A stretch of 56,784 nucleotides of DNA, filler included, from Dugesia japonica (taxonomy: Eukaryota): NCBI GenBank assembly GCA_001938525.1. It is 3 parts of 3 records of this genome, joined end to end, with 100 filler letters (N's around TTAATTAATTAA, not from the genome) between each part and the next. Parts side by side here need not be neighbours in the genome. Positions count along the whole stretch, not along the records: positions 1 to 25,267 come from MQRL01501491.1; positions 25,368 to 46,654 come from MQRL01643597.1; positions 46,755 to 56,784 come from MQRL01181097.1. One strand, given 5' to 3'. The notes under the pieces were generated by a model, which worked only from the letters and a program-made list of their open reading frames with translations, had not been told where the DNA came from and did no database searches. The position numbers and the translations under genes were made by a program. This document shows, one piece after another, positions 4,655 through 51,486 of the stretch (position 1 is its first letter; each line of letters opens with the position of its first letter).

Positions 4655-4745
4655 CAATTCCTTACGAAGACAAAGTCGAAATACAGAATTGTTATCAAAA
4701 ACCAAAATAACAAATTTTGATAGAAGCTTTTATTTTGAATGAATT
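4655..4745 (+). ncRNA. Hammerhead-ribozyme repeat, copy A (core mutated)
   Basis: CAATTC-CTTACGA-A-GAC-AAA-GTC-GAA-ATAC-A-GAATTG followed by the family tail (..ttttgatagaagcttttattttgaatgaatt). Confidence 0.7.
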
Positions 4746-5087
4746 ATAAACTTTTATTTTAATAAAGTATGCCGAATAATAACATGAATTTATTTTTAAT
4801 GTTTTTGAAGTATGGTATATTATTAAGAGGGTTTAAATGAAATTAAAATACTAATATGTAGTCCATTTCAAAAAAGGATTGTTTTACGCAATTGTTCATA
4901 CTAACCTAGTTAAAACTAACCGGGTTTCACTGTAATATAATATTAATAATATTAAAATAATATGATAAAATTTTCTTTGAATTTATTTTACTCCAATCAT
5001 TTATAGAAAGTTAAGGAGCTAGTTTTTTTATAATACTTTTTGATTGCATTTTTAATTCTCATAATTTTATCAATGTTTATTTTTAAG

Positions 5088-5285
5088 AAAATCTTCCAAA
5101 TTACTCCTTTGAATTTGATTGAATGGTCTGCGGTAATGAAAATATCAATTCCGGTGATTGTGATTGATGAGACAATGAAGTTCATATCTCGTAAATCTAT
5201 GGATGATGAACCTTTGATGCAGGGTGCTTACGCAGTATTCCTAATGTGGGCTGCTTATTTTGCATTGTTATTTTTATGTCCATAA
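5088..5285 (+). CDS. SERCA: Terminal exon of sarco/endoplasmic reticulum Ca2+-ATPase (last TM helix plus hydrophobic C-terminal extension)
   Basis: ttttaag acceptor at 5081-5087. [35 protein letters not shown] matches the SERCA C-terminus (IFQITPL..QW..VLKISLPVILLDE.LKFVAR). Stop at 5283-5285. Confidence 0.9.
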
Positions 5286-5454
5286 CATTGAGCATGATAT
5301 TTGGCATGTTGGAATTTAGTCGTAGACTTGACCAGATTGTTAAAATGAAACATGTTTATGTGATCTAGGATTAAAAAATACTTTAGAAATCCGTGAATTT
5401 TATTTGAATTCTTTATAAATATAAAATGTACTGAAATTATTTTGAATTTTCTAT

Positions 5455-5455
5455 G

Positions 5456-5521
<66 letters not shown>
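5455..5521. repeat. (AAT)n microsatellite running into a gap
   Basis: Direct reading. Confidence 0.95.
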
Positions 5522-5867
5522 NNNNNNNNNNNNNNNNNNNNNNNNNNNNNNNNNNNNNNNNNNNNNNNNNNNNNNNNNNNNNNNNNNNNNNNNNNNNNNN
5601 NNNNNNNNNNNNNNNNNNNNNNNNNNNNNNNNNNNNNNNNNNNNNNNNNNNNNNNNNNNNNNNNNNNNNNNNNNNNNNNNNNNNNNNNNNNNNNNNNNNN
5701 NNNAGCCCCGGTGACTCTTACCCGACGTTAAGAGTGCATGAGCGCACCATCTGCGTGTTATTTGGGTTCGTTTACTGCGGCGATAGAAGCCAATTTTAAA
5801 TTAGATGTATAAAATCAATATTAAACGATAATATTTTTATAAACACTATGCAGCATTACAAATGTGG

Positions 5868-6212
5868 TCAATCGTCATTAAAACATAGATCAATGAATTT
5901 TTGACGGGCTTTCTTCGGAGGTAGAATACCCGATGACGTGGAGGGAGAGTCCAATTGTAGCTGCCAAAAACTCTCATTCTCGTGCCGGAGCCACTCGACT
6001 TCCGCTTCAAGTTTCCATATTTGCATACCCTGGGACTCATCTCTCCGAGTATACTCTATATTTTGCTTTCTCAACGTGGAAACTTCTACTGCTAGCATAG
6101 CTATCTTCTCCTGCAAAGATTGACAGGTTTGGGACCAGTTAGTGATTGTTGCGAGCTGACTATCTGTACTGGCGGAAAACTGGACGCCGCGCCAAACGTT
6201 CGGCTGGGTCAA
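5868..6212 (-). CDS. Orphan ORF in a GC-richer island; coiled coil plus basic NLS-like PPKKAR
   Basis: 114-aa open frame with heptad-like pattern and markedly higher GC than the flanks. The TTG start follows a stop, so it may be frameshifted from an upstream ATG (MDENAPEL..). Confidence 0.35.
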   Translation of the reverse strand: MTQPNVWRGVQFSASTDSQLATITNWSQTCQSLQEKIAMLAVEVSTLRKQNIEYTRRDESQGMQIWKLEAEVEWLRHENESFWQLQLDSPSTSSGILPPKKARQKFIDLCFNDD

Positions 6213-6609
6213 CTATTAAAGAGCTGTCGATTTCGAGTCAGTTCGGGAGCATTTTCGTCCATCTAAAGTGGTATAGATTAATTCGATTTAATCTGTCAAT
6301 TCGTTATGCGTTAACGAATTTCATTGGGATTTCCTTACCATTGAAATTATAAGCATGATAACTTGATGGTAAAATGCGAGGTGATTTTAATTGAGGCGAG
6401 GTGTTTAATCAACGTCACGATAATTTCAAGGTCTGGTATAGTTATATTGAAACAATAATGCTATCTTCAAGATTGTTATTTAGAATATTTCTAGTTAGTG
6501 GCTACCTTAGCAGTTGAATATAATATTGAGGTGAAAATTATCCGTCGTAACTTTAATTGCAGTAATTATTAAATTAACCATTGTAGTCATATTAACAATT
6601 ATATTAACC

Positions 6610-6807
6610 TTAATGATGATAACAATAATAATACTAGTAATAATAATAACAATAATAATATTAATTAGCATAATGAAATTGTTACTAGCAATCCTGATCC
6701 TAAGAACAATAATGATAATAGTGATAAGAAAAAATAAATAACAATATTCATAGTGACACTAATAATACAACAAGAAAATCCTAATGGTAATAATAATAAT
6801 AATAATG

Positions 6808-6855
<48 letters not shown>

Positions 6856-7180
6856 NNNNNNNNNNNNNNNNNNNNNNNNNNNNNNNNNNNNNNNNNNNNN
6901 NNNNNNNNNNNNNNNNNNNNNNNNNNNNNNNNNNNNNNNNNNNNNNNNNNNNNNNNNNNNNNNNNNNNNNNNNNNNNNNNNNNNNNNTAATAATAATATT
7001 AATGATAATAATACCAATAATGATAATAGTAATAATAATAATGATAATAATGATAATAATAGTAATAATAGTAATGATCATAATATTAATAATTATAATA
7101 ATTGTAATTGATAATTATAATCCTATCGTGAATAGCATTACTAGTGAAGATAATATTATTAATAATAAAATAAAAATATG
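6610..7180. repeat. (AAT)n and degenerate AAT-rich low-complexity region
   Basis: Direct reading; explains the poly-I/N/L/Y pseudo-ORFs. Confidence 0.9.
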
Positions 7181-8783
7181 AACCGTGCTATTAATAATCT
7201 GAATAATAATAGTCTGGGCATAAATTAGTAATAATATAAATTTTATACATTGTCTATTCCTAATGGGTCTGGATATATGATAATAACTACGATAAACTAT
7301 GATTTGTAAAGTTTATTATCGATTAAGATTTTATGGAAAAACGAAAAAGGCTTAATGCATAATAGTTAATGGATAATATAATAATTAGCATTAAAATAAA
7401 TGAAAGATTTTTTAAAATATTAAGAAAAAATTAAAAATAACTAAATAAACTCGCATATTTTATGGATACATTTAATTGAATTATTAAATAAACATAAAAA
7501 TGACAAATACTAACTACCTTTGACAGCTATGCTGGAACAATATTCTGAATTGAAGAAAATGAAGAATAAATGGAACTGTAATTAAATATCTGAAATAGGT
7601 TTGAGTTTTGAAACTGGGATATTTCTTGACGAATTCGATGGTTTGAAACTGGTTCTCTTCTTGCGAAAGATACGAACGACGATATTCTTCTGATTTACTA
7701 GATGTGGTTATCGTACGGAGAATTTCCCAAAAATGATGGAGTTTCTCAATTAATTTACTGCCGGTTGGATATCGCTTTTATACTACAACTTTGATGAGCG
7801 ATCTTGAATCTTGTCAGGTTAATATCCTGTTTTCTTCGAAGCTAATGCGTTGTCTTCCAAACAATCTATACGTGATTTAACGATGAATCTAATGCTACGG
7901 AGATGAATTGACGGATCCACAGAAGTGTTCGTACAGAAATTGGATTTTCCAAAGATGGTTAAATTTTTAATTTTAAATTTTAATATAGGATCTTCTGGAA
8001 ATTAAAATTTTTAATTAATCTTCTGATTGGCTGGAACGATTGATTTTTGAGTGCAAATTTGATTATGGTTGTTTTAATTAATCCTAATTTAATTAATTTC
8101 AGCTTTTTAAATTAATTAGATCTGTTTTTAAGGGGTAAGTTTTGTGTTTTTCAGGACACTTTTATAGTTGATTTTGATCCTGATTCTAACCTCATTGGTT
8201 ATTCGTTCTGGATTATTACTTAAATTATTTCGAGAAATATTTGATTTTTCAGCAAATGCGACAATTTTATGGTAATTTTATTTTGATTTACTTCTTAATT
8301 TTACCATTTTTTATAGATTTACATGTTATTTATTAATTGGGATCCAGATAATTTGAAAATAATTTGCTTTTCCTCCGAATAGGTCGAGATTTCCTGCAAT
8401 TTGTTGTAGATTTTTTACAAATAAATTTTGTTTTTTAATCTTGTTTTTAGTTTAATTTCTCTGTTTTTCGTTTGCTTTATATTTACTTTGTTTTCAACAT
8501 CGATTGGGTTCTGTCCCAATAATAATTATAATTATATAATTAAATATAAATTATAATTATAATTAAAATAATAATAATTTTAAAAATATTTTTATTCAAT
8601 TCAACTCAGAATCAAAAGCTCTATAGGAATACATCTTAACTTTTTTTCTAAACATGCTTGATTCTCTCAGAAAAGACAGTTGCGCAATAGACAATTTCGT
8701 AATAGGTGTGTATTTGTGACGCAATAAACCACGTGTTACTTAAAATATATTTATAATAATAATAATATTAATAATAACAATAA

Positions 8784-8837
8784 TATTTCATTAAAATAAG
8801 ATAAGGCTTCGATCAAAACAAAACAAAATTTATTTGT
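8784..8837 (-). repeat. Tail of hammerhead repeat family (ribozyme part presumably in the adjacent gap)
   Basis: Reverse complement is identical over ~55 nt to 51151-51205, which directly follows hammerhead copy D. Confidence 0.85.
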
Positions 8838-9479
8838 NNNNNNNNNNNNNNNNNNNNNNNNNNNNNNNNNNNNNNNNNNNNNNNNNNNNNNNNNNNNNNN
8901 NNNNNNNNNNNNNNNNNNNNNNNNNNNNNNNNNNNNNNNNNNNNNNNNNNNNNNNNNNNNNNNNNNNNNNNNNNNNNNNNNNNNNNNNNNNNNNNNNNNN
9001 NNNNNNNNNNNNNNNNNNNNNNNNNNNNNNNNNAGAAAAGTCTTTTAGATATTATAGATATATTATTCTTAGAATTTTTTAATTTTGATTTTTTTGTATT
9101 TTTTTTATTTAAAATTTAAATATAAAAAACACAAAACAAAATAAAAAAAATTTTTTAAAAAATTTTCATAAAAGTACAAAACAAAATGGGCTTTTATAAT
9201 ATCTAAAAGACTTTTCTGTATTAATCAAAAAAAATCTTTTTTTTGAAAATTTTTTGATGTAAAAATAANNNNNNNNNNNNNNNNNNNNNNNNNNNNNNNN
9301 NNNNNNNNNNNNNNNNNNNNNNNNNNNNNNNNNNNNNNNNNNNNNNNNNNNNNNNNNNNNNNNNNNNNNNNNNNNNNNNNNNNNNNNNNNNNNNNNNNNN
9401 NNNNNNNNNNNNNNNNNNNNNNNNNNNNNNNNNNNNNNNNNNNNNNNNNNNNNNNNNNNNNNNNNNNNAAATCTCAAAT

Positions 9480-9535
9480 CCGATCAATGGTTAAGTCCAA
9501 CAATTATTCTCACAATAATTGTAATTATAAAATAA
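9480..9535 (+). repeat. 3' tail of hammerhead repeat family
   Basis: cgatcaatggttaagtccaacaattattctcacaataattgtaattataaaa matches the tails at 39707, 48865 and 50146. Confidence 0.85.
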
Positions 9536-10841
9536 CAATAATAATAATTATTATTATTTCTTTATTTACCCTTAAATACCATATTTTGTCCAGTTTTATC
9601 CTATTTTACTCGATTTTTTCGTGGTTTTGCCATATTTTGACCTATTTAACCTGTTTGACTCTATTTGGTCCTATATGACCATATTTTGTCGGATTTTTCT
9701 ATATTTTCTTTATATTTATGTATTAAGTTTCAAATGATAATAATAACTCATGGTTAATTTTAATGGATAAAGAATTAAGTCCATTACAATTTGAGTTCAA
9801 TATAGGTTTCAACATAAAAAATATGAGTTGTCATATGAAATATAGATATCCCTTTCAATAAAATCCTTCACTATTTACCATCATTTTTGCTTGCTCATTG
9901 GTTTTTGGGCGTGCACCTTGGTTTTCATGGTTTTATTTAAAAACATAATTACCAGTTACATTATTAGTAAAATCAAACTTTAGACTATAACTTAAACATT
10001 TTTATATGGTTTCGATATGGAAAATTAGTTTCGTCATTCAAAAATATTGAACTTATCATAGACAATACGAGCTTTACCATTGTAAAATATGAGTTTGGAC
10101 ATGGAAAATATTTAATAAAGTACATCTAGTCACTAATTATATTACATTTATTGTATACATACAGTCATTTAACATGCTTAATTTGTCTATATTTTATCAA
10201 TTTTCACTTATTTTCCCACCATTTTCATACATTAGTCATTTCCGATCATTTACCTTCTATTTTCCTGATTTACCTCTATTTAGCTATATTTAGCTATATT
10301 TAGCCATATTTGTCTATTTTCTATTTGGTTTTAATGGATATTTTTACTTCATATTTTCAAAGACCCCACTTCACTAATCTTTAAAAAGTGTCATATATCA
10401 ATAAAAGAAGACAATGAGACTGAGCGAGATCTAGTATGATATGCTTTTTATTTAATATAATATAGCTATTTCAGTATATTTTAATCATCTTATTATCCTT
10501 CTGCTTCTTTGTTTACTCCTTGGTTCTCTGGTTGCTCATTGGTTTATTTGCTTGCTCTTTAATTTTAAAAGGTTTCTTTTTCTTTCAAATACCTAATATT
10601 TAGATACAATGTTAAAGAATTATAGTTCAATATAGAAATAACTGATTTTATCATTAGAAATATTGATCTCATCATTGAAAATATTAGTTTCAATAGATAA
10701 AATTATAGTTTCATTATTAAAAACATCGAGTTTATCATGAAAATATTAGTTTTATAATGAAAATATTGGTTTTATTATTGGATATAAGACCATTAAATTA
10801 GATATATTCAATACACTACATTCGGATTACTAGAAAGATAT

Positions 10842-12720
10842 TGGCGCATGGGAACAAAAAATCAATAATTTCACTCAATTTAAACAAAAATAATTCATTT
10901 CACCTCATTTAAACAAAGAAATTCAAAAAATCGGCCAAAGATTATTGTGGGTAAAATATTAGAAGGAGAATGTAAAACTCTACACACCGAAACAACACTC
11001 GGATATGCAGAAGAGTTAAATTAAAATGCAGAAATGTTTGAAAAAGTATCACTCAGACAATTTTCCCTTGAGAAACAAAGAACAGAAGAAGAAATTACAG
11101 ATAATACACTGTAAAAAAAAGTAAGAATGATATAAAAGTTGCAAACAATTACTACGATGTGGTCAAAACATTAATAATACTCGAAAAGAATAGATGTATT
11201 TAGTCGATATAAAATGGTTGTCGGCAAAACTGACATAATTAAACATAAAATGGAAACAATCAAAAGCAGACCAATTTCTTTCAAGCCACGCAGAACACCA
11301 AAAAAAACTCGAAAAAGATGTAGAACATATGGTTAAAGATTTGGTAGATACTGGTGTTGTAAAGCCGAGTACTTTCCATAGAACTTTCTAATTGTAATGA
11401 CGAAAAAGAAAAATGGTCATAACCGTATGTGTGTTGACTGGATGTGTGTGAGCACTGGATGCTAAAACAAACTGACCAATATTTCTAATATTATCATCAG
11501 AGGAAAAATTTGACAGTATTACGAGACCCAACTGTTTTCAACTCTAGATCTTTCGAGTGGATATCATCAAGTGCCAATAACTAACAAAGATCAGGAAAAA
11601 CAGCATTCTACACAAAGTTTGGAAAATACGAATTTATCAGAATGCCGTTTGGATTATCCTCAGCACCAGCAACATTTCAACGACTTATGAATATTGTATT
11701 GTGGAAGGAAAATTAGAAATATATTTAGTAATATATTTAGACAATGTTTTAATATTCGGTAAAACTGTAGAAGAACACAATGAAAGACTAGATCAAAGAC
11801 TAAAAACAATAAAAGAAGCTGAACTTAAATTATCACCAGAAAGAAAACAAATTTCAATGGGCAGATGAAAATAAAGAATAATTTTACAAGCAACGTAAAC
11901 AAAATACAAAATCATCAGTACTAGTTTTGCCAACAAAAATAGCAAATATATCTTAAATACAGATGCTTCTCTCAACGCAATTGACGCTATAAATTTTCAA
12001 GTATAAAATGGTAAGAAACAAATATTATAATATGTATTGAAAACACTAACAAAATGTTAGAGACAGTACAAGTAAAAAGCTTCTGGCAATATATATGTCT
12101 GTTCTCAAGTTTAAGCACTATTAAATGGGATTACAATTTGTGGTACCAACAGATTATCAAATATTTAAATTGATGCTTAATTAGGAGAGCCCAAATACGT
12201 GGCAATACTGCATATGGGATGCTGAATTAAAAATGTTTGATATGATCGTAGCTTTTAGATAAGGTTATGAATATACTAATGCTGATACATTTTCATGATA
12301 ACCAGATTGTTAGTAGTGTTTAATAAAACATGAGGATCCAAAAAGAAAAAGAAACGTTTTAATATACAAAACAACAGATAACGATGAGTAACAAAGTATA
12401 CGCTCAGAAAAGGTTATAAATATAATAAACTAGGAAAAAAATGGAAACAAAGAAAATATATAAATATATGAATAATACTACAGGCTCTAGATACAGACGA
12501 GAAAACACTTCGTGACGTAGAGAAATAAGGAAATACAATCGTATTGGGAGAAAAAGTAAGAACTGCAAATTCGAGGCGAGATTCTATATTTAAAAAATAA
12601 GGAGAAATATTTTCTTATTGTGCTCACATATAAAAGTAAAGAGGGGAAGATGGTGAGATCGACATTGTTAGGTAAATCTTCAATTGTTGATTCATTTTGA
12701 AAATCAGAACTCATATTGTT
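10842..12720 (+). mobile_element. Heavily decayed Ty3/Gypsy pol (RT, RNase H)
   Basis: TGGCGC PBS-like site at 10842. 'LDLSSGYHQV', '[21 protein letters not shown]', 'IYLDNVLIFG', 'LNTDAS', 'HTNAD'-like motifs in broken frames. Confidence 0.88.
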
Positions 12721-12899
12721 AGACATTTTTTATTTNNNNNNNNNNNNNNNNNNNNNNNNNNNNNNNNNNNNNNNNNNNNNNNNNNNNNNNNNNNNNNNNN
12801 NNNNNNNNNNNNNNNNNNNNNNNNNNNNNNNNNNNNNNNNNNNNNNNNNNNNNNNNNNNNNNNNNNTAAAGGACTAATAGTGAAAAGTTAGTGCAAGTT

Positions 12900-33719: not shown

Positions 33720-35160
33720 TAGGGTTTCTGGAAATCCGCACTTTTTCAAAACCACGGTTTCAGTTTTGTATTCGGTTTTTGGTAATATTTGATATTTGAA
33801 TGGGTTAGATTACTAGAAATTTTGAATATATATTTTAAAATTATTAGATCAGTTTTGTTTCATTTCACTATTTCTAAACATTTGAAGTTATTTACTTTCT
33901 CTATAAAAATTCCAATCTAGTTTCTTGGCTATGATTCTCTTAAAGAACGCTGTAAACGTCATTCAGTTGTATAACTAATATGTTAAGTATTTAAATGCAA
34001 AATTTATATTGATACGTAAATAAATTAGTGTTTAAGTACAGGTAGAACTAAGTACAAGCCGAAATATTATATCTATGAATATAAATATTAATGTCTTTTT
34101 AATTATAAAACTAAATATAAAAACTAAACAAAATTTGACATAAAACTAAATTTATTTTAAATTCAAAAAATAATGTTTTAAAACACTAAGCTATTTAAAT
34201 GTTTATCGTTCAATCGAGATCTTAATTTTGTACAAACGTTTGCGCTTAGAGAAAAGGTTCTTTCAGCGTAGGTGGATGTAGTTTTAATTGCAGAGAGTGC
34301 TTGAAACAACATATTTAATTTTTTTGTTCTCTCGAAAGCTCTTTTATATGTAATGAACTCTTGTTTCAAAGAGTTTGAAGAGTGATTTGTTTTCTTTTAA
34401 GTATTTTTTTTAATACGTATTGAATAGCTTTTTGAACTTCGTCTTGCAGGAATAGTTTGAGTTGGCCACTTCTTCTAATTCTTCTAAACATTACAAACAT
34501 ACACGTTTAACTTTATTGTTGCCTGGATAAAGTTATTCAAAAAGATTTCCGGCAAATAATCAAACAGACTTTGTAGAAATTTTGAAGGATCAAATAAACA
34601 TGTAGCCAATTCTGTTAATTTCAGATTTTCATCGGTTTTCAAACGTTCCATGATATTATCCATTAAAGCTTTGCTTTTATTAAAGCTAATACATTTCTTT
34701 ACAAGATTCCTATTACACCTTGTTCCGTAAATATGTTTGAATCGCCGGTACCTAATGTTTTTACTAATACTCTTACCGGAGATAAAATTTCCTTTAAGTT
34801 ACATAACAATTGAAAATAAACATTTTTAATTTAATGCACTGAATTTAATTTTGTTAGAGTCTGTAATACTGGGACTTGTAGAAGAATAAATGTTTCTTAC
34901 ATTGGTTCAACTCTTTTCTTTTTGGAAAAGAGTTTTTATGTTTTGTTGTAGAAAATTGCTATCTATCGGAAATAAACGAAACAAATTCAATCCCTTATAG
35001 ATGGGAATGGTTATTTTTTTTCCATACAAAAACTTTTCTTTTCCTACAATTTTTTAAATTAAAACCAAAAACTGCGGTTCTTTTTGACAGTTAATCAGTT
35101 TCGGTTTTTTATAGAAAACTGCGGTTTTAGGGTTCGGATATATCCGGACCAGAAACCCTA
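33720..35160 (-). mobile_element. Inner hAT element (internally deleted) with transposase C-terminal remnant
   Basis: Perfect 12-bp TIR TAGGGTTTCTGG / CCAGAAACCCTA, TSD gaagatat/gaagagat, subterminal cggttt repeats, 'TTSTYAERTFSLSANVCTKLRSRLND' dimerisation motif at 34178-34369. Confidence 0.92.
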
Positions 35161-36415
35161 GAAGAGATGATTCACTTATTTTGTTACTGGCATACAGCTT
35201 GCAACAGAAGCAACAAACAAAGTCATCACTTACAGAATACTGAAGCCAATGTNNNNNNNNNNNNNNNNNNNNNNNNNNNNNNNNNNNNNNNNNNNNNNNN
35301 NNNNNNNNNNNNNNNNNNNNNNNNNNNNNNNNNNNNNNNNNNNNNNNNNNNNNNNNNNNNNNNNNNNNNNNNNNNNNNNNNNNNNNNNNNNNNNNNNNNN
35401 NNNNNNNNNNNNNNNNNNNNNNNNNNNNNNNNNNNNNAATGAAATTATCGATTCTATGCCCTCCATATTTTGTTCCTTAGTGCATACCATGCATTTCATT
35501 TTGTAGTTCAAACTCTTCTGATACTGTCTCTTCGGACTCCTCGACTACTTTATTCGTTTCGGCTTGATTGTTTAACTCCTCTGAACAATCTTAATCTCTA
35601 CCTAGATGGAATATCAACGTATTTAATACTAAAAGGCGGTATTTTTTAATATTTCAATTTCTGACTGATCTTCTAGAGCCGTACTATGTGGCTGTCTACT
35701 TCGTTTAGTAGTTAAACTGGCCCTGATGGTACATGCTTCTGACCAACTAAAATTATTATCACTGCTGAATAAATATACATTGATGCTTTAATACCAAGAT
35801 AATACTCCATAAACATCTAACAGTTTTATAAATTTTATGTTATATAATCTTTTGTGCTATAATAAAGTGCCTTGAAATTTATGAAACCACCAAGAATTAA
35901 AGTAAAATATTGAAATAATTTTAATTAGTTATGTAACAGTAAATATTGATATACTTCGAAATTTAAAAATAGGTTACCAAGTAGCCGTAAAACTGGTATA
36001 GAGTATTTTTGGTCTTGCTCAAATTAAATGTGCAAGATTGTAGACATAAAAATTTTCTCTATGATGTTGTACAACGTGTCGAAATTAATCTGAGGAAATC
36101 TTCCGCTTTGTATAGTTATAATACTCCGATAGTGTAATGAGTAAAGTAGTCAATGTGTATTCGTTTGAGAAATGTAGATAATGGCATTTTTCTCATATCT
36201 TTTATGACGTACACCTTAAACACTTGTAGCTAAATGGTTGTTGCATTACTGCCTATATTTGGTGACTTGGTTTCAGGTAGCTTCTCGATACTACTAGACA
36301 AGAAGCTTATGAAGTCACGAAGATCTTTAATATAATTTTTAAAAATAATTTTAAATAGATGTACAATTACAATTATTGGGAGGACTTAACCATTGATCGT
36401 ATTTGAGATTTCTTC

Positions 36416-36587
36416 AAATTAAAAGCTTTGATTAAAATATTGTTTTTATTTTTGTTTATTTTTAGTTCTTGATAGTATTTTGAATTTTTGATTAAATCTT
36501 CGTTAGAAATTGACTTTTTGACAAAAATTCGAAATACTATCACGAAAAAAAAACGGAAAACAATATTTTTATCGAAGCTTTTAATTT
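36416..36587. repeat. Head-to-head inverted pair of the hammerhead repeat (degenerate ribozyme on minus strand)
   Basis: Minus strand reads aaaagtcaattt-CTAACGA-A-GAT-TTA-ATC-AAAAATTC then the tail. The plus strand carries a mirrored copy caaaaattcgaaatactatca...aaacaatatttttatcgaagcttttaattt. Confidence 0.7.
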
Positions 36588-37059
36588 AAAAAAAATCTAA
36601 AATAATTTAAAAAATTAGAAAAATCGAAAAATTTGTATGAAAATAAATTAATAAAAATAAATTCAGTTTGAAATAAATAAATTTTTGTTGTTGTTTTAAT
36701 TTTTTTGAAAAATTCANTTTATATCTGTTTATCATTTTATAAAAAAAATTTAAATTGAATCATCTAATTTTTTAAATTCAACGACGAGTGTCTCAAACTC
36801 ATCTTACACATTTAAAAAACAAACGAAATTTAAGCTAATTTCTTTCATTTCTAAAATTTTCAAACCAAAAACTAAATTTTTAAAATTAATCTAGGAATTT
36901 TAAAAATTTTATCCAACCAATGAAATAGTCAAATTTTCTGTCTACATTTTTCTCAACAAAATTTTTAACCTTATGAGATTGAAATACGACTTTTATATTT
37001 AAAATATTCCTAAGTGCNNNNNNNNNNNNNNNNNTAAATTCAGTAGGCTACTGCATGTC

Positions 37060-38030: not shown

Positions 38031-38834
38031 CTGATTAAATGAATAAAAAAACTAAAATTAAATTATTTAAAGGCCACCATGGCTTTTTTTTACAATTAAG
38101 CGTTAAAAGTTATAATATTTATTCAAATATTTAGTTGATGGATACTTTAGTAAAACATTTGTCTTTATTATACGGCAGTTCATAGTATGGTCACAAAATT
38201 TTTACTAAGCATTTAATTTTTCTACTCAGCATTTAAATCTCAGCCAACCTTAATTGTAATTCCTTAGTAATTTTATTAAGGATTTGAATTTAAAGAATAA
38301 CANNNNNNNNNNNNNNNNNNNNNNNNNNNNNNNNNNNNNATTTTATTATCGAAATCTAACAAAATGTAAAATATTATTCTTTAAAAAATATTATACTGTA
38401 TCTTTTACCAACTGCATTTATTCTTTTATAACATATTCACATGAAATTGCTTATTTTGCAAAATGAAATAAATTTTAAATTGTAAATTAGATAAAAAATA
38501 ATAAAAAAATTACAATTGAAAAGTAATTTATTTATTAAATGAATCATATCGAAATATATATAAAAATATAAATCTTAAAGAAAATTAAAATATAATTTTT
38601 TAAAAAATTGTTAATTGAACGAAAGAAATAAAATTGCTATTGACTAATTTAAACTAATAAATATTTAATTTCTTTACAAAACTCGGTAAATTAAAAACAA
38701 TTTACGTTTTAATCAATTTGCTTTAATCAATTAATATTTTCGTTAAATTCAAGCTTATACTATTACTAGATATTTTATTATTGATTGGGTTATTATGGAT
38801 TTCATTATTATAACGAAGATTATTTAAGCGAATA

Positions 38835-39446
38835 ATGTTTAATCAATCACAAAATTTAATCAACAAAAACGTTTGTAATGAAAGTGGAGAATTTCAAACA
38901 AAAACCAATTCAATAAATGATTTTAATTTCATGTATAATAATCATAATGAGTCCAGCAAAAAAAAATCTAAAGAAAAATCTGAAAAAGACAAATCACAAA
39001 AAAGTGAAACAAAATCTGCAATGAAAAAAAGTAAATCTGATAAAAAGAGTGATGGTAAAAGTAATGAAAGTAAATCAAATAAGAAAAATGTTGAATATAC
39101 AAAGGATGAAAAAAAATCCAATCAAAAATCAAAAACGTCGAAAAGTGATTCAAATCCCGATACTTCTGAAATGAAAAAACGAAATTCAAAGAAAAAAGAC
39201 AGATCAGCGAAAGATAGTATAAAAGACGACAGAATTTCAATTAGTATTCTCCAAGATAGAACTGCAAAACGAAAGGAAATTATTGATAATGCAGTGTCTA
39301 AAGGTCAATTAAATTTGGTTGATTTTACTAATTTGAAAGGCGAAGAGCTGAGAAAAGAATTAGAAAAACAGAATAGAGAAAGAGAAAAAAGAATGCAAAA
39401 ATATATTAAATTTGATGAAACAGTTATCATTGATAATACTGAAGAA
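38835..39446 (+). CDS. Orphan gene exon 1 (K/S/D/E-rich, coiled coil)
   Basis: 204 open codons from ATG in ~80% AT DNA; phase-0 donor GAA|gtgagg. Confidence 0.75.
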
Positions 39447-39616
39447 GTGAGGTTTATTTATAACAAATATTTTAATAAGTTTTAGTTAACATTAATAAAA
39501 TCTCTAATGCGATCAAACGTTAAATCCAATAATTATTCTCACAAAAATTGTAATTGTAAAAATTAATAAAATTTGCTTAAATTTTTTTATTGCAAATTTA
39601 CTTTGCTAACATTTCT

Positions 39617-39737
39617 GACTTCCGGACGAAGACAGTCGAAAATTAAAATTATTATCAAAAAAAAATTTTTAATCGAAGCTTTTATTTTAATGAATTCTGA
39701 AAAAAACGATCAATGGTTACGTCCAACAATTATTCTC
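39617..39737 (+). ncRNA. Hammerhead-ribozyme repeat, copy F (degenerate)
   Basis: C-CGGACGA-A-GAC-A-GTC-GAA-AATT-A followed by the full family tail. A further tail-only copy lies at 39509-39562. Confidence 0.7.
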
Positions 39738-40699: not shown

Positions 40700-42359
40700 G
40701 TAAATTATTATACAAAATTATTATTATTAATATTCTAAAATATACAAATAACTTTTGAGGTTAAATATTTTTAATTAGATACCCTAGATGGAATATTAAT
40801 TGATTGAACAATGATTTTATTATGGTAAAATATAATCATAAACTATTCGAAAATAATTCTGTGAAAGATTACTAAAGTTTTTCTCAAAATATTACAATTA
40901 ATGCTGTACCTAGTTGAGTTAGCATTGTGGTGTTCCAAGAGTACGTGGTAATACCAGAATTTTTGGCATTTAAATTTAAAGCGTGGTACATTCACGGAAT
41001 CTAAGATTTAGGTGGAATGTGGTCAAAGACTATTATATGGCTTATATATTATAATTGTGACGACTTATGTAAAAAATAGATTTGTTTTGTGATTTATTTA
41101 GATTGTGCTAAATACGAAAGTTGGGATTACCCTACTATAAAGACCCATTCAGCAATTCTCCTTAATTCTTACACGTATATAATTGGGAATCTCTACTGGT
41201 TTTTAATTTATCACTCATTACATTCATTGGAATAAATAAGATTTTGTACATCTGAAATACAATTTAACGTTTCATTAACTATAACTGTGAGTTTTTTTTG
41301 AAAAGCGAGTTGAAAGTTTTGTGCTTTGATTGGAAATTATTTTTTTTTAAATCTTTTATTTAAAAATTGAAATTCGAAAATTAATCAAGAAATTAAAGTA
41401 AATTAAATTAGAAATTTTGTACAAAATTATGTGTAGTTAAAGATTAATTCAAATATTTTTATACACAATTTATTGTAAATTTTTAGAAACTACAATTTTG
41501 TTTTAAAATTTTGAAAATTTAAAATGATATGTTAATAGCGAATGATTGTTTGTTTTAAAATTTGGGAAATTAAAGATAAATGCTACAGTTTTCTTTGGAA
41601 TCAATATTCACCATAGCTTCTTGCTGTTAGAGTTTCCTTTAATTCTTTCGCCAACATCGGTAAATTTTATTATTTGATTTGCTACTTGATAATCTCTCAA
41701 CCAGATTTTCAACATTGCTTTAGTATATTATTGAAATTCTGCAGAATAAATCCTCTTGACAAATTCATGTTTTCGATCATACTAGTGCGATTTTCAAAGT
41801 AGAATTTCTGTCATCGTCAATTAGGTTCTTTACAACAAGTCTAAAACTTTATACTTCCATTTTTCCACAGTATTTGAATAGAACTGTAAAGTTGAAGCAA
41901 CACAAAATTTCCTAATTTCAGGGATTAATACAGAAAATATAATATAAATATAAACTGTACTTTTATTTAAAAAAATTTAGTTTTGTAAATATGATGCTGA
42001 AACAAGTAACTAGAACTTGGACTGATTCAAAGCTAGACAAGCAAAAAATTTCTAATGTTTTACATAGAAATGAGAGTGTTTTTTGTCGTTTCAATTGGGG
42101 TAAAAAACAAAGTAATCTCACGTGAATACCGTATTCAATCATATTATAATGAATTGAGAAACAAATTAATTTAATTCATCTATTAAAATTGATTTATAAG
42201 TAAAGGAATATTCATAANNNNNNNNNNNNNNNNNNNNNNNNNNNNNNNNNNNNNNNNNNNNNNNNNNNNNNNNNNNNNNNNNNNNNNNNNNNNNNNNNNN
42301 NNNNNNNNNNNNNNNNNNNNNNNNNNNNNNNNNNNNNNNNNNNNNNNNNNNNNNNNNNN

Positions 42360-43135
42360 AATTTGTTTGACAATGGCGTTATTAGAAAGTTTAATTCTCA
42401 ATGGAACACTCCGTTAATATGTGTTTGGAAGAAAGAAAGGAAAGACATTAGATTATGTCTAGATTTTAGAAAACTGAATGCTATCACAGAAAGACAGGAA
42501 TTTCCGATGCATAATATAGAGGGAATCCTAGAGAATTTGAGTGGTTCAAGATATTTTAGTATTATTGATTAGGGTAATGTATACTATCAAGTTCGGTTAT
42601 ATAAAAATTCACAAGGGAAAACAGTATTTTCTATGAAAATGAACAGTATTGTTTCACAAGAATACCTTTTGATATAGCTGCAGCACCTGAAACGTTTCAA
42701 GAATTAATGACAAAAGTATTAGGAAGATTGAGAGGAACGATGGTATACATGGATTATATATTGATATTTTCATAAAATTTAGAGCAGCACTATAAAATTC
42801 TAGACCAAGTTTTTAAAAGAATTAAAGAATCAGAGTTGAGAATTAATCCGAAAAATGCCATTTATTGCGAGCAGAAGTCAAACTTTAGGACATGTCATGG
42901 ACAAGAATGGAGTTAGAACTGATCCAACAAAAATTGAAGCGATAAAAAATTTCGGAAGACCTAAATGTGTGAAAAACTTGAGAAGCTTTTTAGGAATATG
43001 CCATTACTATAGAAGGTTTATCAATTACTCAAAGAAAGCTAGAAGCTTGAAAGAGCTATATGGAAGTAATATTAATAATACAAGACTTGTGTGGTCTGAA
43101 AACTGTGTCAAGATGTTCGAGTTGATTAATATAAG
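42360..43135 (+). mobile_element. Ty3/Gypsy RT-RNase H fragment (same family as 3400-3840 and 22245-22900)
   Basis: 'WNTPLICVWKKERKDIRLCLDFRKLN', 'LRSFLGICHYYRRFI'. Confidence 0.9.
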
Positions 43136-43194
43136 AAATTACAGGAAAGATTTTCTTTCTAGAAAAATAATGATGAATTGACAGAAAATCTAAA

Positions 43195-46139: not shown

Positions 46140-46352
46140 GTGGAAAGCAAAGCACTTTTAGTAAGAAAAAAAGATTGGTTAACATTTAAATCTTTAGAAT
46201 TAGAACATATGTTTGATGATACAGGATACAAATTTGAAATGTTGGAAAAGAAACACAAAGCCATGCACGAAGCATTGAAAAATATTGAATCAGTAAAAAC
46301 CGATATGAAAAAAATAGTTAAATATCGAGCTGTATTAAACAAATTACAGAAT
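46140..46352 (+). CDS. Orphan gene exon 3
   Basis: tattag|GTG...AAT|gtaagt; 213 bp, phase 0/0, helical charged sequence. Confidence 0.75.
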
Positions 46353-47867
46353 GTAAGTTTCTTTCAAATTTTTATAGATGTTGAATTATAACCAATAAAA
46401 CAGCTAATCAAAAACAGAAAAATTAATATTCTTTGTTATACTTTCTTGCGTATCAATAAATTAAAAAGAATCGATCAAAATGTTTTTTTGTTATTATTAG
46501 TAATACAATATTTTTGTTTTATTAAGGTATGATTACCTATTACCACATGTACACAAAGTATGAATTCAGTAAATATATGCTTTAGATAAAATTATATTTA
46601 TCAAATATGTACATTTACTAGTCACGCACATATTAGATTATATATATATATATANNNNNNNNNNNNNNNNNNNNNNNNNNNNNNNNNNNNNNNNNNNNTT
46701 AATTAATTAANNNNNNNNNNNNNNNNNNNNNNNNNNNNNNNNNNNNNNNNNNNNAGCTTAGAAATATAATAATTTTTATTTAAAATTTGGGCGCAATTAC
46801 TTATAATTTATTATATTAACGGTGAGATTGGGGGGGGGGTACTGTACAAGTGCTCAAATATCTTAGTAAGCCAATACATTTAAAATTTATTAAAAAATAT
46901 GGAACTGAGTAATTTTCAATATATAAGCTTGAAATAAAAAGGAAACAATTCTCTAAACAAAGTAAAAAATTTGATATTCAAACTGTTAATGCATTAATAA
47001 AAATTTTTTTAATTATTTACGCAAGTTTGATTTCTAATTATAAAATATTAAAACTATTAAAATTACAATGAAAACTTGAATTTACTTTGATCCATATGTA
47101 CTAGTTNNNNNNNNNNNNNNNNNNNNNNNNNNNNNNNNNNNNNNNNNNNNNNNNNNAAATAATAATTTATTATATTAACGGTGGATGTTATTTAGTTATA
47201 ATAATAAATAAATAATAATATCCACAGATAACTGTCAAATGTTACCTGATAATATATTTCTCAATAATAACTTAATAATATAAGCAAAGTATTTAGAATA
47301 ATTACTAACTGTACAATTAAAAATAATATTCATCATAAATTAATATTTTAAAAATATAAATAATTTAAACAATGGAAATTATAGAAAAATTTAATTTTAA
47401 TATTTCATTATATATATNAAGTTTTTTTTAATGATTTTTATGCAAAGTGTATATTATTCATGTATATAAAGTACTATATAAAAAATTTTAAATGATCATA
47501 AATTTTAGCGAGATTGTTGATACAATGTATAAACTATTTGAGTAACAAAGTTTTTGAAATAAATATTTTCATTGAGTTGATTGAATATAGAGATATAGTG
47601 ACGGCCTGTACCCCCGCTGAAGTAAGAATATTAACTTAATCCTTTTTTAAGTTAAGACTTCTTTATGAACCTCTTTAAGAACCTGTATACTTTTTCTGAT
47701 TATACAATTGGGGAGATTTTCCCTGTGCATTTAGCTGGGAATTTTTTTTGACTTAATCAGATTATGTAATTAGGTTTATTAATTATAAAATAATTAGCAA
47801 TTTTAAAAAAAAATTTTGACTTCAAGTAAAATTAGATAATATTATCTCGCTCTTTTTTGTCCTCTCA

Positions 47868-48360
47868 CTAATTTTCTACTTTTTCATCCGTTTTGCTGTT
47901 AACCTTTCGCATAAGCTGATATCCTAAAATCTTCTGCATATCTATTCCTCCGATCAGATCTGGTGTGACTCTTTCAGCAACTAAGAAAGTAATCTCTTTG
48001 CGAACTTCATCAATTATCAATCCAACTTTAACTTTTCCAACAATTTCAAGAGTACTATTATTTGCACAACGCAATCTTTCATCACTCATTTCTAAATGCA
48101 TTTCTCGTAAATTATTAAAACAACTCAGATTCATCAGGTTAATTCTACCCAATGCATCTAATAAACATTCTAATTCATTTCCATTAAATTGATACCGTAA
48201 CACTTGGTCTGCCTTTTAATTTATGGTACGAAATATTTGTTTTCTGTTCTGATTCAATTGTTCTACTTTTCTTTCATCAGCAAAATTTTCCCTCTTTAAG
48301 AACTTGTATACTTTTTCTGTAACTTTTCCTAAATCATCCCACTCTTGGACCCTTTGAGGA
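47868..48360 (-). mobile_element. Ty3/Gypsy gag-end/protease fragment
   Basis: 'ECLLDALGRINLM..ERLRCANNS..DLIGGID' is paralogous to 2927-3283 and 23142-23444. Confidence 0.85.
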
Positions 48361-48672
48361 TAAATACTAACTACATTTAACTATATTTATATTTTATTTA
48401 ACACGCATTATTTATACATTATTGTCATCAATAATTATTATATTTAAAATCATTAATGTCAATAGATACTAAATTGCAACACATAAAATTAGGATTAGTC
48501 CACCAAAACAATCTTAAAATACCCAACATCTCGAATCTTCCTAAACTGTCTTTCAATTTGTCTGTTTGTAGTTTGATGATAGAGGTTCAAAAAGCAAAGT
48601 TTTTATTTGAAAGCAAACATTTATTTCATCATTTAAACTAAATTCATCGTATTCTTTTTCTTTTCTTCTCAG

Positions 48673-48684
48673 ATTGACAAATGA
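48673..48684 (+). CDS. Possible terminal micro-exon of the orphan gene (IDK*)
   Basis: Strong polypyrimidine acceptor ttttcttttcttctcag|ATTGACAAATGA, with AATAAA ~18 nt downstream. Confidence 0.45.
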   Translation: MDK

Positions 48685-48750
48685 GGTCATCAATTCGATA
48701 AAATAAAGCGTTTATATATGTATTATTTATTTTATAAGAATCGACTTTTA

Positions 48751-48918
48751 AATTGACTCTAAAAGTCAATTCCTGACAAATACAAAGTCGAAATATAGAA
48801 TTGTTATCAAAAACCAAAAATAAAAATTTTGATCGAAGCTTTTATNTTGATGAATTCTGAAAAACGATCAATTTAATTACGCCCAACAATTATTCTCGCA
48901 ATAATTGTAATTGTAAAA
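48751..48918 (+). ncRNA. Hammerhead-ribozyme repeat, copy B (two core/stem mutations), full tail
   Basis: CAATTC-CTGACAA-A-TAC-AAA-GTC-GAA-ATAT-A-GAATTG. Confidence 0.75.
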
Positions 48919-49174
48919 TTTTACATATATTTTTGAAATATTTCAAATATATTTTGAAACTTTTTAAATATATTTCTGCAAAAACCTGTAAACAAAAAAT
49001 CTTTTAAATTACAGTAATATTTTTCGAAATATTTATATTACCGAATTTTTAAAATAGTAAAAACTTATTAAAAAATTATTTAAAAAAATATCGTATGAGT
49101 ATTTTTCTTAGAAAATCGATATTTTTAAATATAAAATTTAATAATAAAACAATTGTGATAGTAAATAAACCTTA

Positions 49175-49330
49175 GGGACCATCCATTAAGGATGTCCCCA
49201 AAAAGTTAGCACTTTTTGACTCCCCATCCTCCTTGTCCCTTTATGTCCATTTCCAAGATCCCTCATATTCCCCACGTGTCCCCTTGTTGGAAACTACCCT
49301 TCCGAGGGGACATCCTTAATGGATGGTAAG
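49175..49330. mobile_element. PIF/Harbinger (Tourist-like) MITE
   Basis: 22-bp perfect inverted repeat ACCATCCATTAAGGATGTCCCC (49178-49199 / 49306-49327); TTA on both sides. Confidence 0.88.
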
Positions 49331-49538
49331 TTATGGCAAATTTTAAAGTTCTCAATTTAACTAATTATTATTATAATTATTATTATTTTTATAATCATTT
49401 CAATTAACACAAAAAGTTGTACCCACACACAGGTAAAATAACTAAAATAAAACATTTAGCTACAAAATATATTGATACTAAATTAGCGAAAGTCGGCAAC
49501 GTCAACATTAATTTTATTTGTTGCCGCCATGTCATCTA

Positions 49539-49949
49539 TCATATGTTATTTTTTGGTCCAAGTTTATCAGTATCTTCTCTCGATTCATGGAATAATGTTT
49601 CGTTTTCAAATATTGTCAAGTTCAACCTTTCNNNNNNNNNNNNNNNNNNNNCAGAGTTCCATTTGGGATTTAAAATATCTTCGAGTGAAAAGGCGCAAAT
49701 AATCATTCGCATATTTCTTGGGATTATTCCAGTAGAATACTTAACTTTTATTAGCCTATTACAAGCTGTATTTGTTAAGTTTAATAATCTTTCTAGGCCC
49801 CACTTCGATAAATCAATCATGTCAACAACTATTCCGTCATATAAGAATTTATTTGGCCCCAACTTTCCAAAGTCCTCCTGTATCGTTACATACAGGGCTT
49901 TTTGAAAATGGGACAATGCGTAATTGGTTTTTCCAATTCCTAAATTCAC
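49539..49949 (-). CDS. SF3 helicase domain resembling CRESS-DNA virus Rep (endogenous viral element or domesticated exon)
   Basis: Walker A 'GIGKTNYALSHF', Walker B 'YDGIVVDM', B' 'VKYSTGIIP', motif C position 'MIICAF', Arg-finger-like 'ERLNL'. Confidence 0.7.
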   Translation of the reverse strand: MNLGIGKTNYALSHFQKALYVTIQEDFGKLGPNKFLYDGIVVDMIDLSKWGLERLLNLTNTACNRLIKVKYSTGIIPRNMRMIICAFSLEDILNPKWNSXXXXXXXERLNLTIFENETLFHESREDTDKLGPKNNI

Positions 49950-50041
49950 TTTTAATAATGTTTACAATAATTAATATTTAATTACATAACAATTGTTAGA
50001 TAAGTAATAATAAATATAATAAGAAATAATTATTTAAAAAT

Positions 50042-50197
50042 CAATTCCTGACGAAGACAAGGTCGAAATATTGAATTGTTATTCAATATCAATAAAAAAA
50101 CCAAAATTTTGATCAAAGCTTTTATATTAAATGAATTCTATTAAACGAACAATGGTTATGTCCAACAATTATTCTAGCAATAATTGCAATTGTAAAA
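50042..50197 (+). ncRNA. Hammerhead-ribozyme repeat, copy C (intact core)
   Basis: CAATTC-CTGACGA-A-GAC-AAG-GTC-GAA-ATAT-T-GAATTG: 6-bp stem I, 3-bp stem II, palindromic stem III. Predicted cleavage after 50072. Confidence 0.85.
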
Positions 50198-50816
50198 CAA
50201 ATAATTATTTATTTAATTAATAGTGTTGGATAATAAATATATACTTAATAAATTTAAATAATCAAAGAAAAACTGCAATTTTTAATAAAAACTCTTAAAC
50301 GACATTTCAATACATATTTTTGTATAACATGTTTTGAGATACATATGTAATCTAAATATACAATATTTAACCATTTTNNNNNNNNNNNNNNNNNNNNNNN
50401 NNNNNNNNTATTAATTGTGCAATCTCTCAAATAAATCAAATACATTGAATAAAAATTCAAAAACCTGATGAACATTCAGTTCTGGATCAATTTATCTGAT
50501 CACCAATCATTCATATATAACTCTCCAAAAAATCTTTAAAGTTTCTGCACAAAATTTTAAAATGATATCTATTAATAACTGATTTACAACTAATATTATA
50601 TCCAACCATATTACTCNCATCACCAAGTTGACGGAAGTTTCTCAAATGTATGTGGCATTACACATTCATTCATATTTATAAACGTCAGAACACATAGTAT
50701 GGGTGTATTTTTGGCTTATTACTATACATCTTTATGATTTTATAAGACTGCGAAACCACTTTAAAATTTAAAGAGTTATTTCTATATAAAGTAACCCACT
50801 CTTAAATTATTTAAAT

Positions 50817-51316
50817 CAGGAGTGGGCAATATTATATATCTTACGGGCCAAAATTAGGTCTATTTTACACTGGCGAGTCACATGGCGACTTTCAATAAAA
50901 TCGGGATTAGATATATTATATATTTGATACCACTTATTTACATAAATATTTTATTGTGCAGATCTAAGAGTTGACATTAAAATTTTATTTAATGTTTTTA
51001 AATAAAGAAATATTATCTGGTTTAACAAAAAATGTGTCAAATTAACTTTCACAAGCATCTATATATACGAACAAATAGACGTAAATTTTTATATAAAAAT
51101 ATTTTTCATGTTCCTGAAGAAGACTATTGTCGAAAATTTGAACTTGTTTTACAAATAAATTTTGTTTTGTTTTGATCGAAGCCTTATCTTATTTTAATGA
51201 AATATTTTTCATTCCTAATATATTATAAAATGTAATCTGTAAAGGAAATAATTGAAAATATTAAGAGATTTCGCGGTAAGAAAGAAATATGTTAAGTGGT
51301 AGGTTGCCGACGTCTG
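50817..51316. mobile_element. hAT (Charlie/Buster-type) MITE carrying a hammerhead repeat insertion
   Basis: TIR CAGGAGTGGGCAA / TTGCCGACGTCTG; TSD atttaaat/gtttatat. Confidence 0.7.
51110..51205 (+). ncRNA. Hammerhead-ribozyme repeat, copy D (intact core, second subfamily)
   Basis: GTTC-CTGAAGA-A-GAC-TATT-GTC-GAA-AATT-T-GAAC. Confidence 0.85.
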
Positions 51317-51397
51317 GTTTATATCCTTCAGAATACGAAACAGTTAATACGTAACTAAACTTCAATATTTTATCTGGATCTTTGATAATACTTTTAT

Positions 51398-51486
51398 ATT
51401 TCATTAAATTAAAGAAAAAGCTTCGATCAAAATAAAATTTATTCATAAAGAAATTCAAATTTTCGACACTTGTCTTCTTCAGAAAA
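51398..51486 (-). ncRNA. Hammerhead-ribozyme repeat, copy E (intact core, weak stem I)
   Basis: Minus strand TTT-CTGAAGA-A-GAC-AAGT-GTC-GAA-AATT-T-GAA followed by the tail ttttgatcgaagcttt. Confidence 0.8.

What the first reader, a model, noticed from the sequence alone, without database searches (positions are those of the whole stretch)
4655..51486. Dispersed family of short repeats headed by a minimal type I hammerhead ribozyme
Seen: seven copies with a recognisable core (4655+, ~36480-, 39617+, 48767+, 50042+, 51110+, ~51452-) and tail-only copies (8784-, 9480+, ~36520+, 39509+). All share stem I-CTGANGA-A-GAC-loop-GTC-GAA-palindrome-H-stem I' followed by a conserved tail (tgatcgaagctttt...cgatcaatggttacgtccaacaattattctc...ttgtaattgtaaaa). 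Pairing covaries between copies: stem I is CAATTC/GAATTG or GTTC/GAAC, stem II is GAC/GTC or GAT/ATC with variable loops, and stem III is ATAT or AATT. Established: minimal type I hammerheads occur in Penelope-like pLTRs and animal retrozymes. Inference: this is a non-autonomous, ribozyme-processed retroelement family present at about one copy per 5 kb here, with no ORF of its own.
Basis: partly seen in the sequence, partly recalled or inferred. Interest (0 to 1): 0.9.

Follow-up and report, generated by a model that had tools for sequence, protein, structure and literature searches.

The report
Penelope retroelement ends with minimal hammerheads
The scattered short repeats are real, but they are the broken-off end pieces of a very abundant Penelope-like jumping gene, a kind already known to carry a tiny self-cutting 'hammerhead' RNA motif, so the catch is correct and mostly ordinary.

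Summary
The repeat is real: all 11 listed places match one family. Only 3 of the 7 claimed cores (50048+, 51114+, 51482-) fit a minimal type I hammerhead (0 hits in 60 shuffles); the other four have mutated catalytic bases. 'No ORF of its own' fails. Copy 51482- lies 367 bp behind a GIY-YIG endonuclease remnant, and copy 4655+ sits head-to-head with an RT remnant of the same Penelope-like element (PLE), 51% identical to an RT+GIY-YIG protein. In DNA runs the endonuclease remnant and the repeat are both about 10^4-10^5 times deeper than unique flank. The unit is best read as pLTR plus 'tail' of a high-copy, probably Nematis-clade PLE. Two fixed 3' ends, inverted partners and fold-back junctions match published PLE anatomy. 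RNA reads show no pile-up at the predicted cuts (weak test). A tandem retrozyme is not supported. Still open: many ~160-bp copies start at one point just upstream of helix I, which may mark run-off cDNAs or a non-autonomous mini-element. The scan noted the same kind on other genomes. New member of a known kind.

The parts
50036..50197 (+). Best full unit (e): minimal hammerhead 50042-50078 with intact core, then linker and long tail ending in a stem-loop; predicted cut before 50073
   Evidence: Descriptor pass; MFE equals the hammerhead helix I+II fold; loose-end peaks at 50036 and 50197 with unrelated flanks
51107..51203 (+). Copy f: intact minimal hammerhead 51110-51143, ends at the short 3' terminus; predicted cut before 51140
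   Evidence: other genomic copies of this type run on upstream into a conserved sequence and downstream into the long tail
51398..51492 (-). Copy g: core intact, stem I weakened in this copy; short 3' terminus; 3' pLTR of the PLE endonuclease remnant
   Evidence: 95-99% of DNA depth at 51483 and 51486 shows other letters that pair in stem I
51849..52241 (-). PLE C-terminal remnant: Cys-rich linker and GIY-YIG endonuclease with CxxC and two His, broken by stops and frameshifts; 5'-truncated
   Evidence: Pfam GIY-YIG E 0.0011, below cut-off; 310 relatives at E<=0.001; tblastn E 4e-26; profile E 1e-28
51493..51848 (-). AT-rich spacer, read as the PLE 3' UTR between endonuclease and hammerhead
   Evidence: Depth 600-9,900 against 20-50 for unique flank; a different copy spans 51465-51637 with 22 differences. 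Inferred function
4651..4745 (+). Copy a: core-mutated head plus short tail; inverted partner at the 5' end of the RT remnant
3828..4505 (-). PLE reverse-transcriptase remnant (N-terminal motifs to RT4), broken by stops and frameshifts
   Evidence: tblastn with P0005: 51% over 100 aa, E 1.4e-31
4589..4643 (.). 17-bp perfect fold-back at the junction between the RT remnant and copy a
   Evidence: 0 of 400 random 91-nt windows had an inverted repeat above 14 bp
48761..48918 (+). Copy d: full-length unit with core mutations (G8, G10.1)
39617..39737 (+). Copy c: decayed head plus tail, flanked by a perfect inverted repeat of about 31 bp
39462..39561 (+). Copy t4: diverged linker and long tail, no recognisable head
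   Evidence: E 1.2e-10, not in training set
36360..36519 (-). Copy b: decayed head plus long tail with an 11-nt deletion
36520..36598 (+). Copy t3: 5'-truncated inverted copy joined head-to-head to b, starting inside the hammerhead
   Evidence: E 1.1e-6, not in training set
9469..9533 (+). Copy t2: long tail; head region not readable
8785..8837 (-). Copy t1: f-type linker and short end; head region not readable
   Evidence: 55-nt identity to f

Best explanation
The repeat is the pseudo-LTR end (hammerhead plus optional tail) of one very high-copy Penelope-like retrotransposon with a C-terminal GIY-YIG endonuclease, probably of the Nematis clade. Shown: the motif, its linkage to RT and endonuclease remnants, two fixed 3' ends about 60 nt apart, inverted partners and fold-back junctions. 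Inferred from the Anolis PLE: the RT-EN protein binds its own RNA, nicks AT-rich DNA and starts cDNA internally at one of two sites about 65 and 125 nt downstream of the cut site. It then copies through the uncleaved hammerhead and usually stops early, leaving short solo pLTR copies. The hammerhead has only a palindromic 4-nt stem III, so it should cut only as a dimer or with protein help. Most genomic copies are decaying relics.
For: The endonuclease remnant lies 367 bp upstream of g on the same strand; the RT remnant is head-to-head with a; both match the same protein, P0005, which carries RVT_1 and GIY-YIG. Endonuclease bins reach 0.4-1.15 million summed depth and tail bins 1.06-1.30 million in two DNA runs, against 20-51 in unique bins (the tool warns this is not a copy number). 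Contig joints link the f/g type to the long tail, so all copies are one family (tables 5, 5c, 7). A blind pattern scan of metagenomes found 2 contigs of one locus, with two converging hammerheads of this form, each behind a PLE-type C-terminus. Every structural trait is in print for PLEs: the extra base after A9, G10.1-C11.1, palindromic helix III, solo motifs and opposite-strand pairs 100-700 bp apart (PMC4209133); inverted 5'-truncated partner and optional tail (PMC8557442); ~200-bp pLTRs with junction palindromes and solo pLTRs (PMC3846280); tail as the stretch between two RT start sites (PMC11167929).
Against: No intact element and no direct-repeat pair around an ORF lies in the window, and no genome was available. 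e-type copies show a fixed 5' end with unrelated flanks (agreement 0.45, 120 reads, one RNA run), which random 5' truncation does not predict. The spacer between endonuclease and g is 100-1000 times shallower than either side, so the genome-wide link is shown for a minority of copies only. The tail here (~60 nt) is longer than the published 30-40 bp. An e-type head was never seen joined directly downstream of an ORF. Cleavage was not tested.
Confidence: 0.82

Rival explanations
1. The e-type ~160-bp unit is a separate non-autonomous mini-PLE (SINE-like) that is transcribed on its own and mobilised in trans by the PLE protein.
For: Fixed ends at 50036 and 50197 with unrelated flanks (table 7). 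Six of 7 head-bearing copies in the window start at or within about 6 nt of helix I. Non-autonomous PLE derivatives are described for Chlamys (PMC8557442, passage).
Against: e-type copy a is joined to an RT remnant through a fold-back. e and f/g types share linker and tail. f, of the type that elsewhere runs upstream, stops at the same point, so the boundary is not specific to one subfamily. Copies are 67-93% identical, with no young burst seen. This rival is compatible with the best explanation for part of the copies.
Confidence: 0.12
2. Non-LTR retrozyme: the hammerhead cuts a tandem transcript into ~160-nt monomers that circularise and are reverse-transcribed by a PLE.
For: Unit size is near the published 150-450 bp range (PMC7229834, passage). 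The unit begins and ends with a TAAAA-like word, as a permuted circle might. One X1 contig joins 50183 back to 50036 with 30 letters between, at single-copy depth.
Against: No tandem array of the unit in the window. No direct 50197-to-50036 joint among the 15 joints shown (284 more not shown). Published retrozymes carry canonical hammerheads with loop 1-loop 2 contacts, whereas minimal ones are assigned to PLEs (PMC7229834). RNA depth on the unit is similar to that on the endonuclease remnant.
Confidence: 0.05
3. The hammerhead likeness is chance in an AT-rich repeat such as a MITE.
For: Folding z-scores of the 37-nt motifs are weak (-2.0 to +1.0). Rfam has no hit. Covariation rests on few events.
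Against: 0 descriptor hits in 60 shuffles against 3 real; position behind a PLE endonuclease here and in an unrelated locus; no terminal inverted repeats shared by the copies.
Confidence: 0.01

Closest known systems
Minimal hammerheads (min-HHR) in pLTRs of metazoan Penelope-like elements (Cervera and De la Pena 2014, PMC4209133; read parts 1-2 of 4 and searched one of two supplements)
   Same: Type I topology, extra base between 9 and 10.1, G10.1-C11.1, short helix I, palindromic 15.2-16.2, mostly solo and variable copies, opposite-strand pairs a few hundred bp apart. The supplement lists motifs with the same UUC/GAA and AUUC/GAAU helix I.
   Different: Helix II here is only 3 bp (7-8 bp in Schistosoma). 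This sequence family was not among the passages seen; the planarian motif listed there differs in sequence.
Nematis-clade EN+ PLEs, e.g. PNL2_SM (Craig et al. 2021, PMC8557442; passages, section 11, supplement parts 1-2 of 59 and search passages)
   Same: C-terminal GIY-YIG with CxxC and two His, Cys-rich linker before it; by eye the window's endonuclease resembles the PNL2_SM row of Fig. S2. Hammerhead near the 3' end, inverted partners, optional tail.
   Different: No tree with labelled references was built, so the clade call is by motifs. The linker reads CxCx5C, a spacing the paper gives for the Hydra clade, but Hydra lacks the CCHH motif and its RT and hammerheads look different.
Poseidon of Anolis carolinensis (Frangieh et al. 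2024, PMC11167929; read parts 1-2 of 4)
   Same: Hammerhead followed by a stem-loop region with two discrete genomic 3' ends; no RNA-seq reads beginning or ending at the cut site; AT-rich targets.
   Different: Other clade. Its ORF starts inside the hammerhead and its tail is 30-40 bp; here the two ends are ~60 nt apart and the ORF start was not located.
Non-LTR retrozymes of animals (PMC7229834, passages; bioRxiv 10.64898/2026.07.22.740005, part 1 of 5 and passages)
   Same: Short, AT-rich, type I hammerhead, thought to derive from PLE pLTRs; dispersed monomers are described.
   Different: Defined by tandem units with complete, mostly canonical hammerheads and abundant circular RNA; neither was seen here.

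Membership tests
PLE-type minimal type I hammerhead | CUGANGA and GAAA/UH core closed by helices I and II | tested here: met
   3 of 7 claimed copies pass; 0 hits in 60 shuffles
PLE-type minimal type I hammerhead | Extra base between 9 and 10.1, G10.1-C11.1 pair, palindromic stem III | tested here: met
   All three passing copies; G-C at 10.1-11.1 in 6 of 7
PLE-type minimal type I hammerhead | Self-cleavage (dimer or protein-assisted) | not testable with these tools
   No bench test; no RNA end pile-up listed at the cut sites, a weak test
Endonuclease-bearing Penelope-like element | Single ORF with PLE RT and C-terminal GIY-YIG | tested here: inconclusive
   RT and endonuclease remnants at two separate places both match one RT+GIY-YIG protein; no intact ORF in the window
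Endonuclease-bearing Penelope-like element | Hammerhead in the pLTR downstream of the ORF, same strand | tested here: met
   g is 367 bp behind the endonuclease end
Endonuclease-bearing Penelope-like element | Inverted 5'-truncated partners, junction palindromes, optional 3' tail | tested here: met
   b/t3 head-to-head, 17-bp fold-back at a, ~31-bp inverted flanks at c; four copies end at the short and four at the long terminus
Endonuclease-bearing Penelope-like element | Direct pLTR pair flanking a full ORF | not testable with these tools
   No genome held
Nematis clade | Cys-rich linker plus CCHH in the endonuclease | tested here: met
   Translations; alignment A3; compared by eye with Fig. 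S2 text
Nematis clade | Placement in the RT phylogeny | not tested
   No labelled reference sequences were available as tool inputs
Hydra clade PLE | CCHH motif absent from the endonuclease | tested here: not met
   CxxC and both His are present; definition from PMC8557442 section 11
Non-LTR retrozyme | Head-to-tail tandem units each with a complete hammerhead | tested here: not met
   None in the window; no direct back joint among the joints shown (15 shown, 284 not)
Non-LTR retrozyme | Abundant small circular RNA | tested here: inconclusive
   One oligo-dT and one cDNA library, neither suited to circles
Non-LTR retrozyme | No protein-coding capacity in the family | tested here: not met

The most novel reading that the evidence does not exclude
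The ~160-bp copies are complete run-off cDNAs: reverse transcription starts inside the tail stem-loop region and runs to a fixed RNA 5' end about 6 nt upstream of helix I on an uncleaved transcript. The genome would then hold tens of thousands of natural records of a PLE's RT start sites and transcript start, or of a dedicated mini-PLE built around a hammerhead with a 3-bp helix II. This would show in vivo that hammerhead cleavage is bypassed during transposition. I found no report of a 5' boundary fixed at the hammerhead edge in the passages read (searches), which is a limited look.
Probability: 0.25. Interest if true: 0.45.

Novelty: new member of a known kind. Interest (0 to 1): 0.2.

Why it matters
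As it stands it adds one more PLE family with minimal hammerheads, a class described in 2014, here at very high copy number. Its use is as material for an open question: what the PLE hammerhead does. With so many copies, end positions and core decay can be mapped genome-wide to ask whether cleaved or uncleaved RNA is the template and whether the core is under selection in young copies.

Tried and rejected
Whole genome: none held, so no genome-wide count, consensus or R-scape-type test. Rfam E-value scan: five chance matches, no hammerhead family. Pattern scan of viral contigs: 0 hits. Related-locus scan with P0005 in viral contigs: 31 pattern matches, 0 confirmed. Word-based protein search with the 81-aa endonuclease piece: no candidates. 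Cluster look-up of 10 relatives: no names. Atlas search: RT/GIY-YIG clusters only, no clade name. Sequencing-run search: no RNA holder listed. Earlier notes on this genome: none. Hydra-clade assignment considered because of the DKT and CxCx5C motifs in relatives, then rejected because CCHH is present. The RT at 53560-54245 was considered as the partner ORF and rejected: it belongs to a non-LTR element with a C48 protease and does not match the PLE profile. The tail as ORF start (an ATG opens about 15 codons in e and t2, broken in b and d) is plausible from PMC3846280 but untested. Four short motifs of this family were absent from the readable part of the Craig supplement and two occurred in unrelated contexts; that file was cut when read, and file 1 of the Cervera supplement could not be searched, so the family may be listed where I could not see.
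Full report
Setting. The window is 26% G+C with 2,522 N and is full of transposon debris: LTR-type RT, RNase H and integrase pieces, a hAT piece, a non-LTR element with a C48 protease, and a TRAF/MATH exon. No genome is held. Public runs of one coded organism hold the stretch. An animal host is inferred from these genes; likeness to published planarian PLE rows suggests a flatworm, which is inference only.

The observation. BLAST and alignment show one repeat family. A profile from 9 copies finds all 11 listed places at E<=6.3e-6, including two not used in training, and nothing else below E 0.88. A strict minimal-hammerhead descriptor passes 3 of the 7 claimed cores (50048+, 51114+, 51482-), with no hit in 60 local dinucleotide shuffles; allowing one core mismatch adds no real site and gives 0.25 per shuffle. 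The other four heads have changes at U4, G5, G8 or G12 and broken stems. For e, f and a the lowest-energy fold is helix I plus helix II, but z-scores are weak. Five of 11 pairs show two-sided changes: two from the decayed copy b, two from f, one between subgroups. This supports the fold only modestly. Two 'tail-only' copies adjoin N runs where the head would be, and one of them is identical to f over 55 nt.

What the repeat belongs to. A weak Pfam GIY-YIG hit upstream of g led to 310 relatives. Of the 10 scanned against Pfam, 6 carry both RT and GIY-YIG and a seventh RT only. tblastn with the 150 listed relatives hits two places well: an endonuclease remnant at 52241-51849 on the minus strand (E 4e-26), ending 367 bp before the core of g, and an RT remnant at 4505-3828 on the minus strand (51% to P0005, E 1.4e-31), head-to-head with copy a. 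A third place near 24,400 scored only E 0.001. The a junction has a 17-bp perfect fold-back, longer than any in 400 random windows; c has inverted flanks of about 31 bp; b and t3 form a head-to-head pair. Four copies end at one short terminus (a, f, g, t1) and four at a long one about 60 nt further (e, d, t2, t4; b ends within a few bases of it; c is masked there). A blind pattern scan of metagenomes gave two contigs of one locus: two converging hammerheads of this form, each downstream of PLE-type coding sequence. That is one independent case.

Reads and contigs (49900-52400, 85% likeness, 4 of 24 listed runs). Two contig sets laid 38,696 and 37,040 records. Summed depth is 1.06-1.30 million on the tail, 0.4-1.15 million on the endonuclease core and 20-51 in two unique bins. 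The tool warns that this is no copy number; I take only the order of magnitude. Joints and loose ends show f/g-type copies continuing into the same long tail, so the two types are one family. f-type copies elsewhere have a conserved upstream sequence (agreement 0.76-0.78), while e-type ends at 50036 and 50197 have unrelated flanks (0.45-0.48). At two stem I positions of g, 95-99% of depth shows letters that pair, so g is a decayed copy of a pairing type. The spacer between endonuclease and g is much shallower (600-9,900), which limits what can be said about genome-wide linkage. In RNA, 108 and 4,042 reads were laid; only 54 of 4,042 were 99% alike and 85-89% ran on into unlike sequence, as expected for passive transcription of many copies. 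The only begin/end pile-up listed is 5 molecules at 51826; none at 50073 or 51140. No direct tail-to-head joint is among the 15 joints shown (284 not shown); one contig shows such a return with 30 letters between. These libraries are poor tests for circles or cut ends.

Mechanism. Shown here: motif, PLE linkage, two 3' ends, inverted junctions, high abundance. Taken from print: min-hammerheads sit in pLTRs, occur mostly solo and cut weakly and only as dimers (PMC4209133, parts 1-2 of 4); inverted 5'-truncated partners and optional tails are typical (PMC8557442, passages); pLTRs of about 200 bp include the ORF start, have junction palindromes and occur solo (PMC3846280, passages); an Anolis PLE starts cDNA internally at two sites that delimit the tail, needs no hammerhead cleavage in vitro, and its hammerhead cuts only with protein (PMC11167929, parts 1-2 of 4). 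Inferred: the same applies here, with starts about 65 and 125 nt behind the cut site, near the 8-9 bp tail hairpin (z -3.3 and -2.7 in two of four copies folded, -1.2 and -0.6 in the others). Copies containing the whole core fit an uncleaved or religated template, not a cleaved linear one.

Clade. The endonuclease keeps CxxC and two His and has a Cys-rich linker. That excludes the Hydra clade as defined and resembles the PNL2_SM row printed with the Nematis entries. No tree was built.

What remains unexplained. Six of 7 head-bearing copies start at or within about 6 nt of helix I, and RNA reads from other copies show the same boundary. Run-off to a fixed transcript start, a stall at the ribozyme fold, or a dedicated mini-element could each produce this; none was tested.

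Verdict. This is a new member of a known kind. Earlier notes of this scan reached the same class of answer on other genomes; I read them after stating my reading and did not check them.

Noticed in passing
window 52340-56315 (-): Broken non-LTR retroelement with a Ulp1/C48 protease piece (55278-55727) upstream of RT pieces (53560-54245); NeSL-like by recall. It abuts the 5'-truncated PLE endonuclease remnant.
   Followed up: partly
window 50488-50823: Another high-copy repeat (summed depth 14,000-109,000). The minus strand at 50728-50633 reads like a decayed GIY-YIG start resembling the Perere_Smed row in PMC8557442 Fig. S2; profile E-value only 7.8. Possibly a second PLE family.
   Followed up: partly
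window 2170-3860 (+), 11100-12000 (+), 21100-24800 (-), 28900-32240 (-), 42200-43180 (+), 47868-48215 (-): Several decayed LTR-retrotransposon remnants: RT, RNase H, integrase and zinc-knuckle Pfam hits; the last piece was assigned by eye.
   Followed up: no
window 19790-20293 (-): TRAF/MATH domain exon, E 7e-15.
   Followed up: no
window 38814-39485 (+): Open frame of 223 aa, Lys/Ser-rich, no Pfam hit; its last codons overlap the diverged copy t4.
   Followed up: no
window 49539-49961 (-): Open frame of 140 aa with no Pfam hit, beginning about 75 bp from the head of copy e; RNA depth about 46 in the adjoining bin of one run.
   Followed up: no
window 46454-46500 (-): Possible twelfth, very decayed copy of the linker region, E 0.88.
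   Followed up: partly
window 34178-34396 (-): hAT transposase dimerisation-domain remnant.
   Followed up: no
L001 521-556 (+) and about 710-749 (-): Two converging minimal hammerheads with 5-bp helix II, each downstream of a PLE C-terminus, in a marine metagenome contig; L002 is the same locus.
   Followed up: yes
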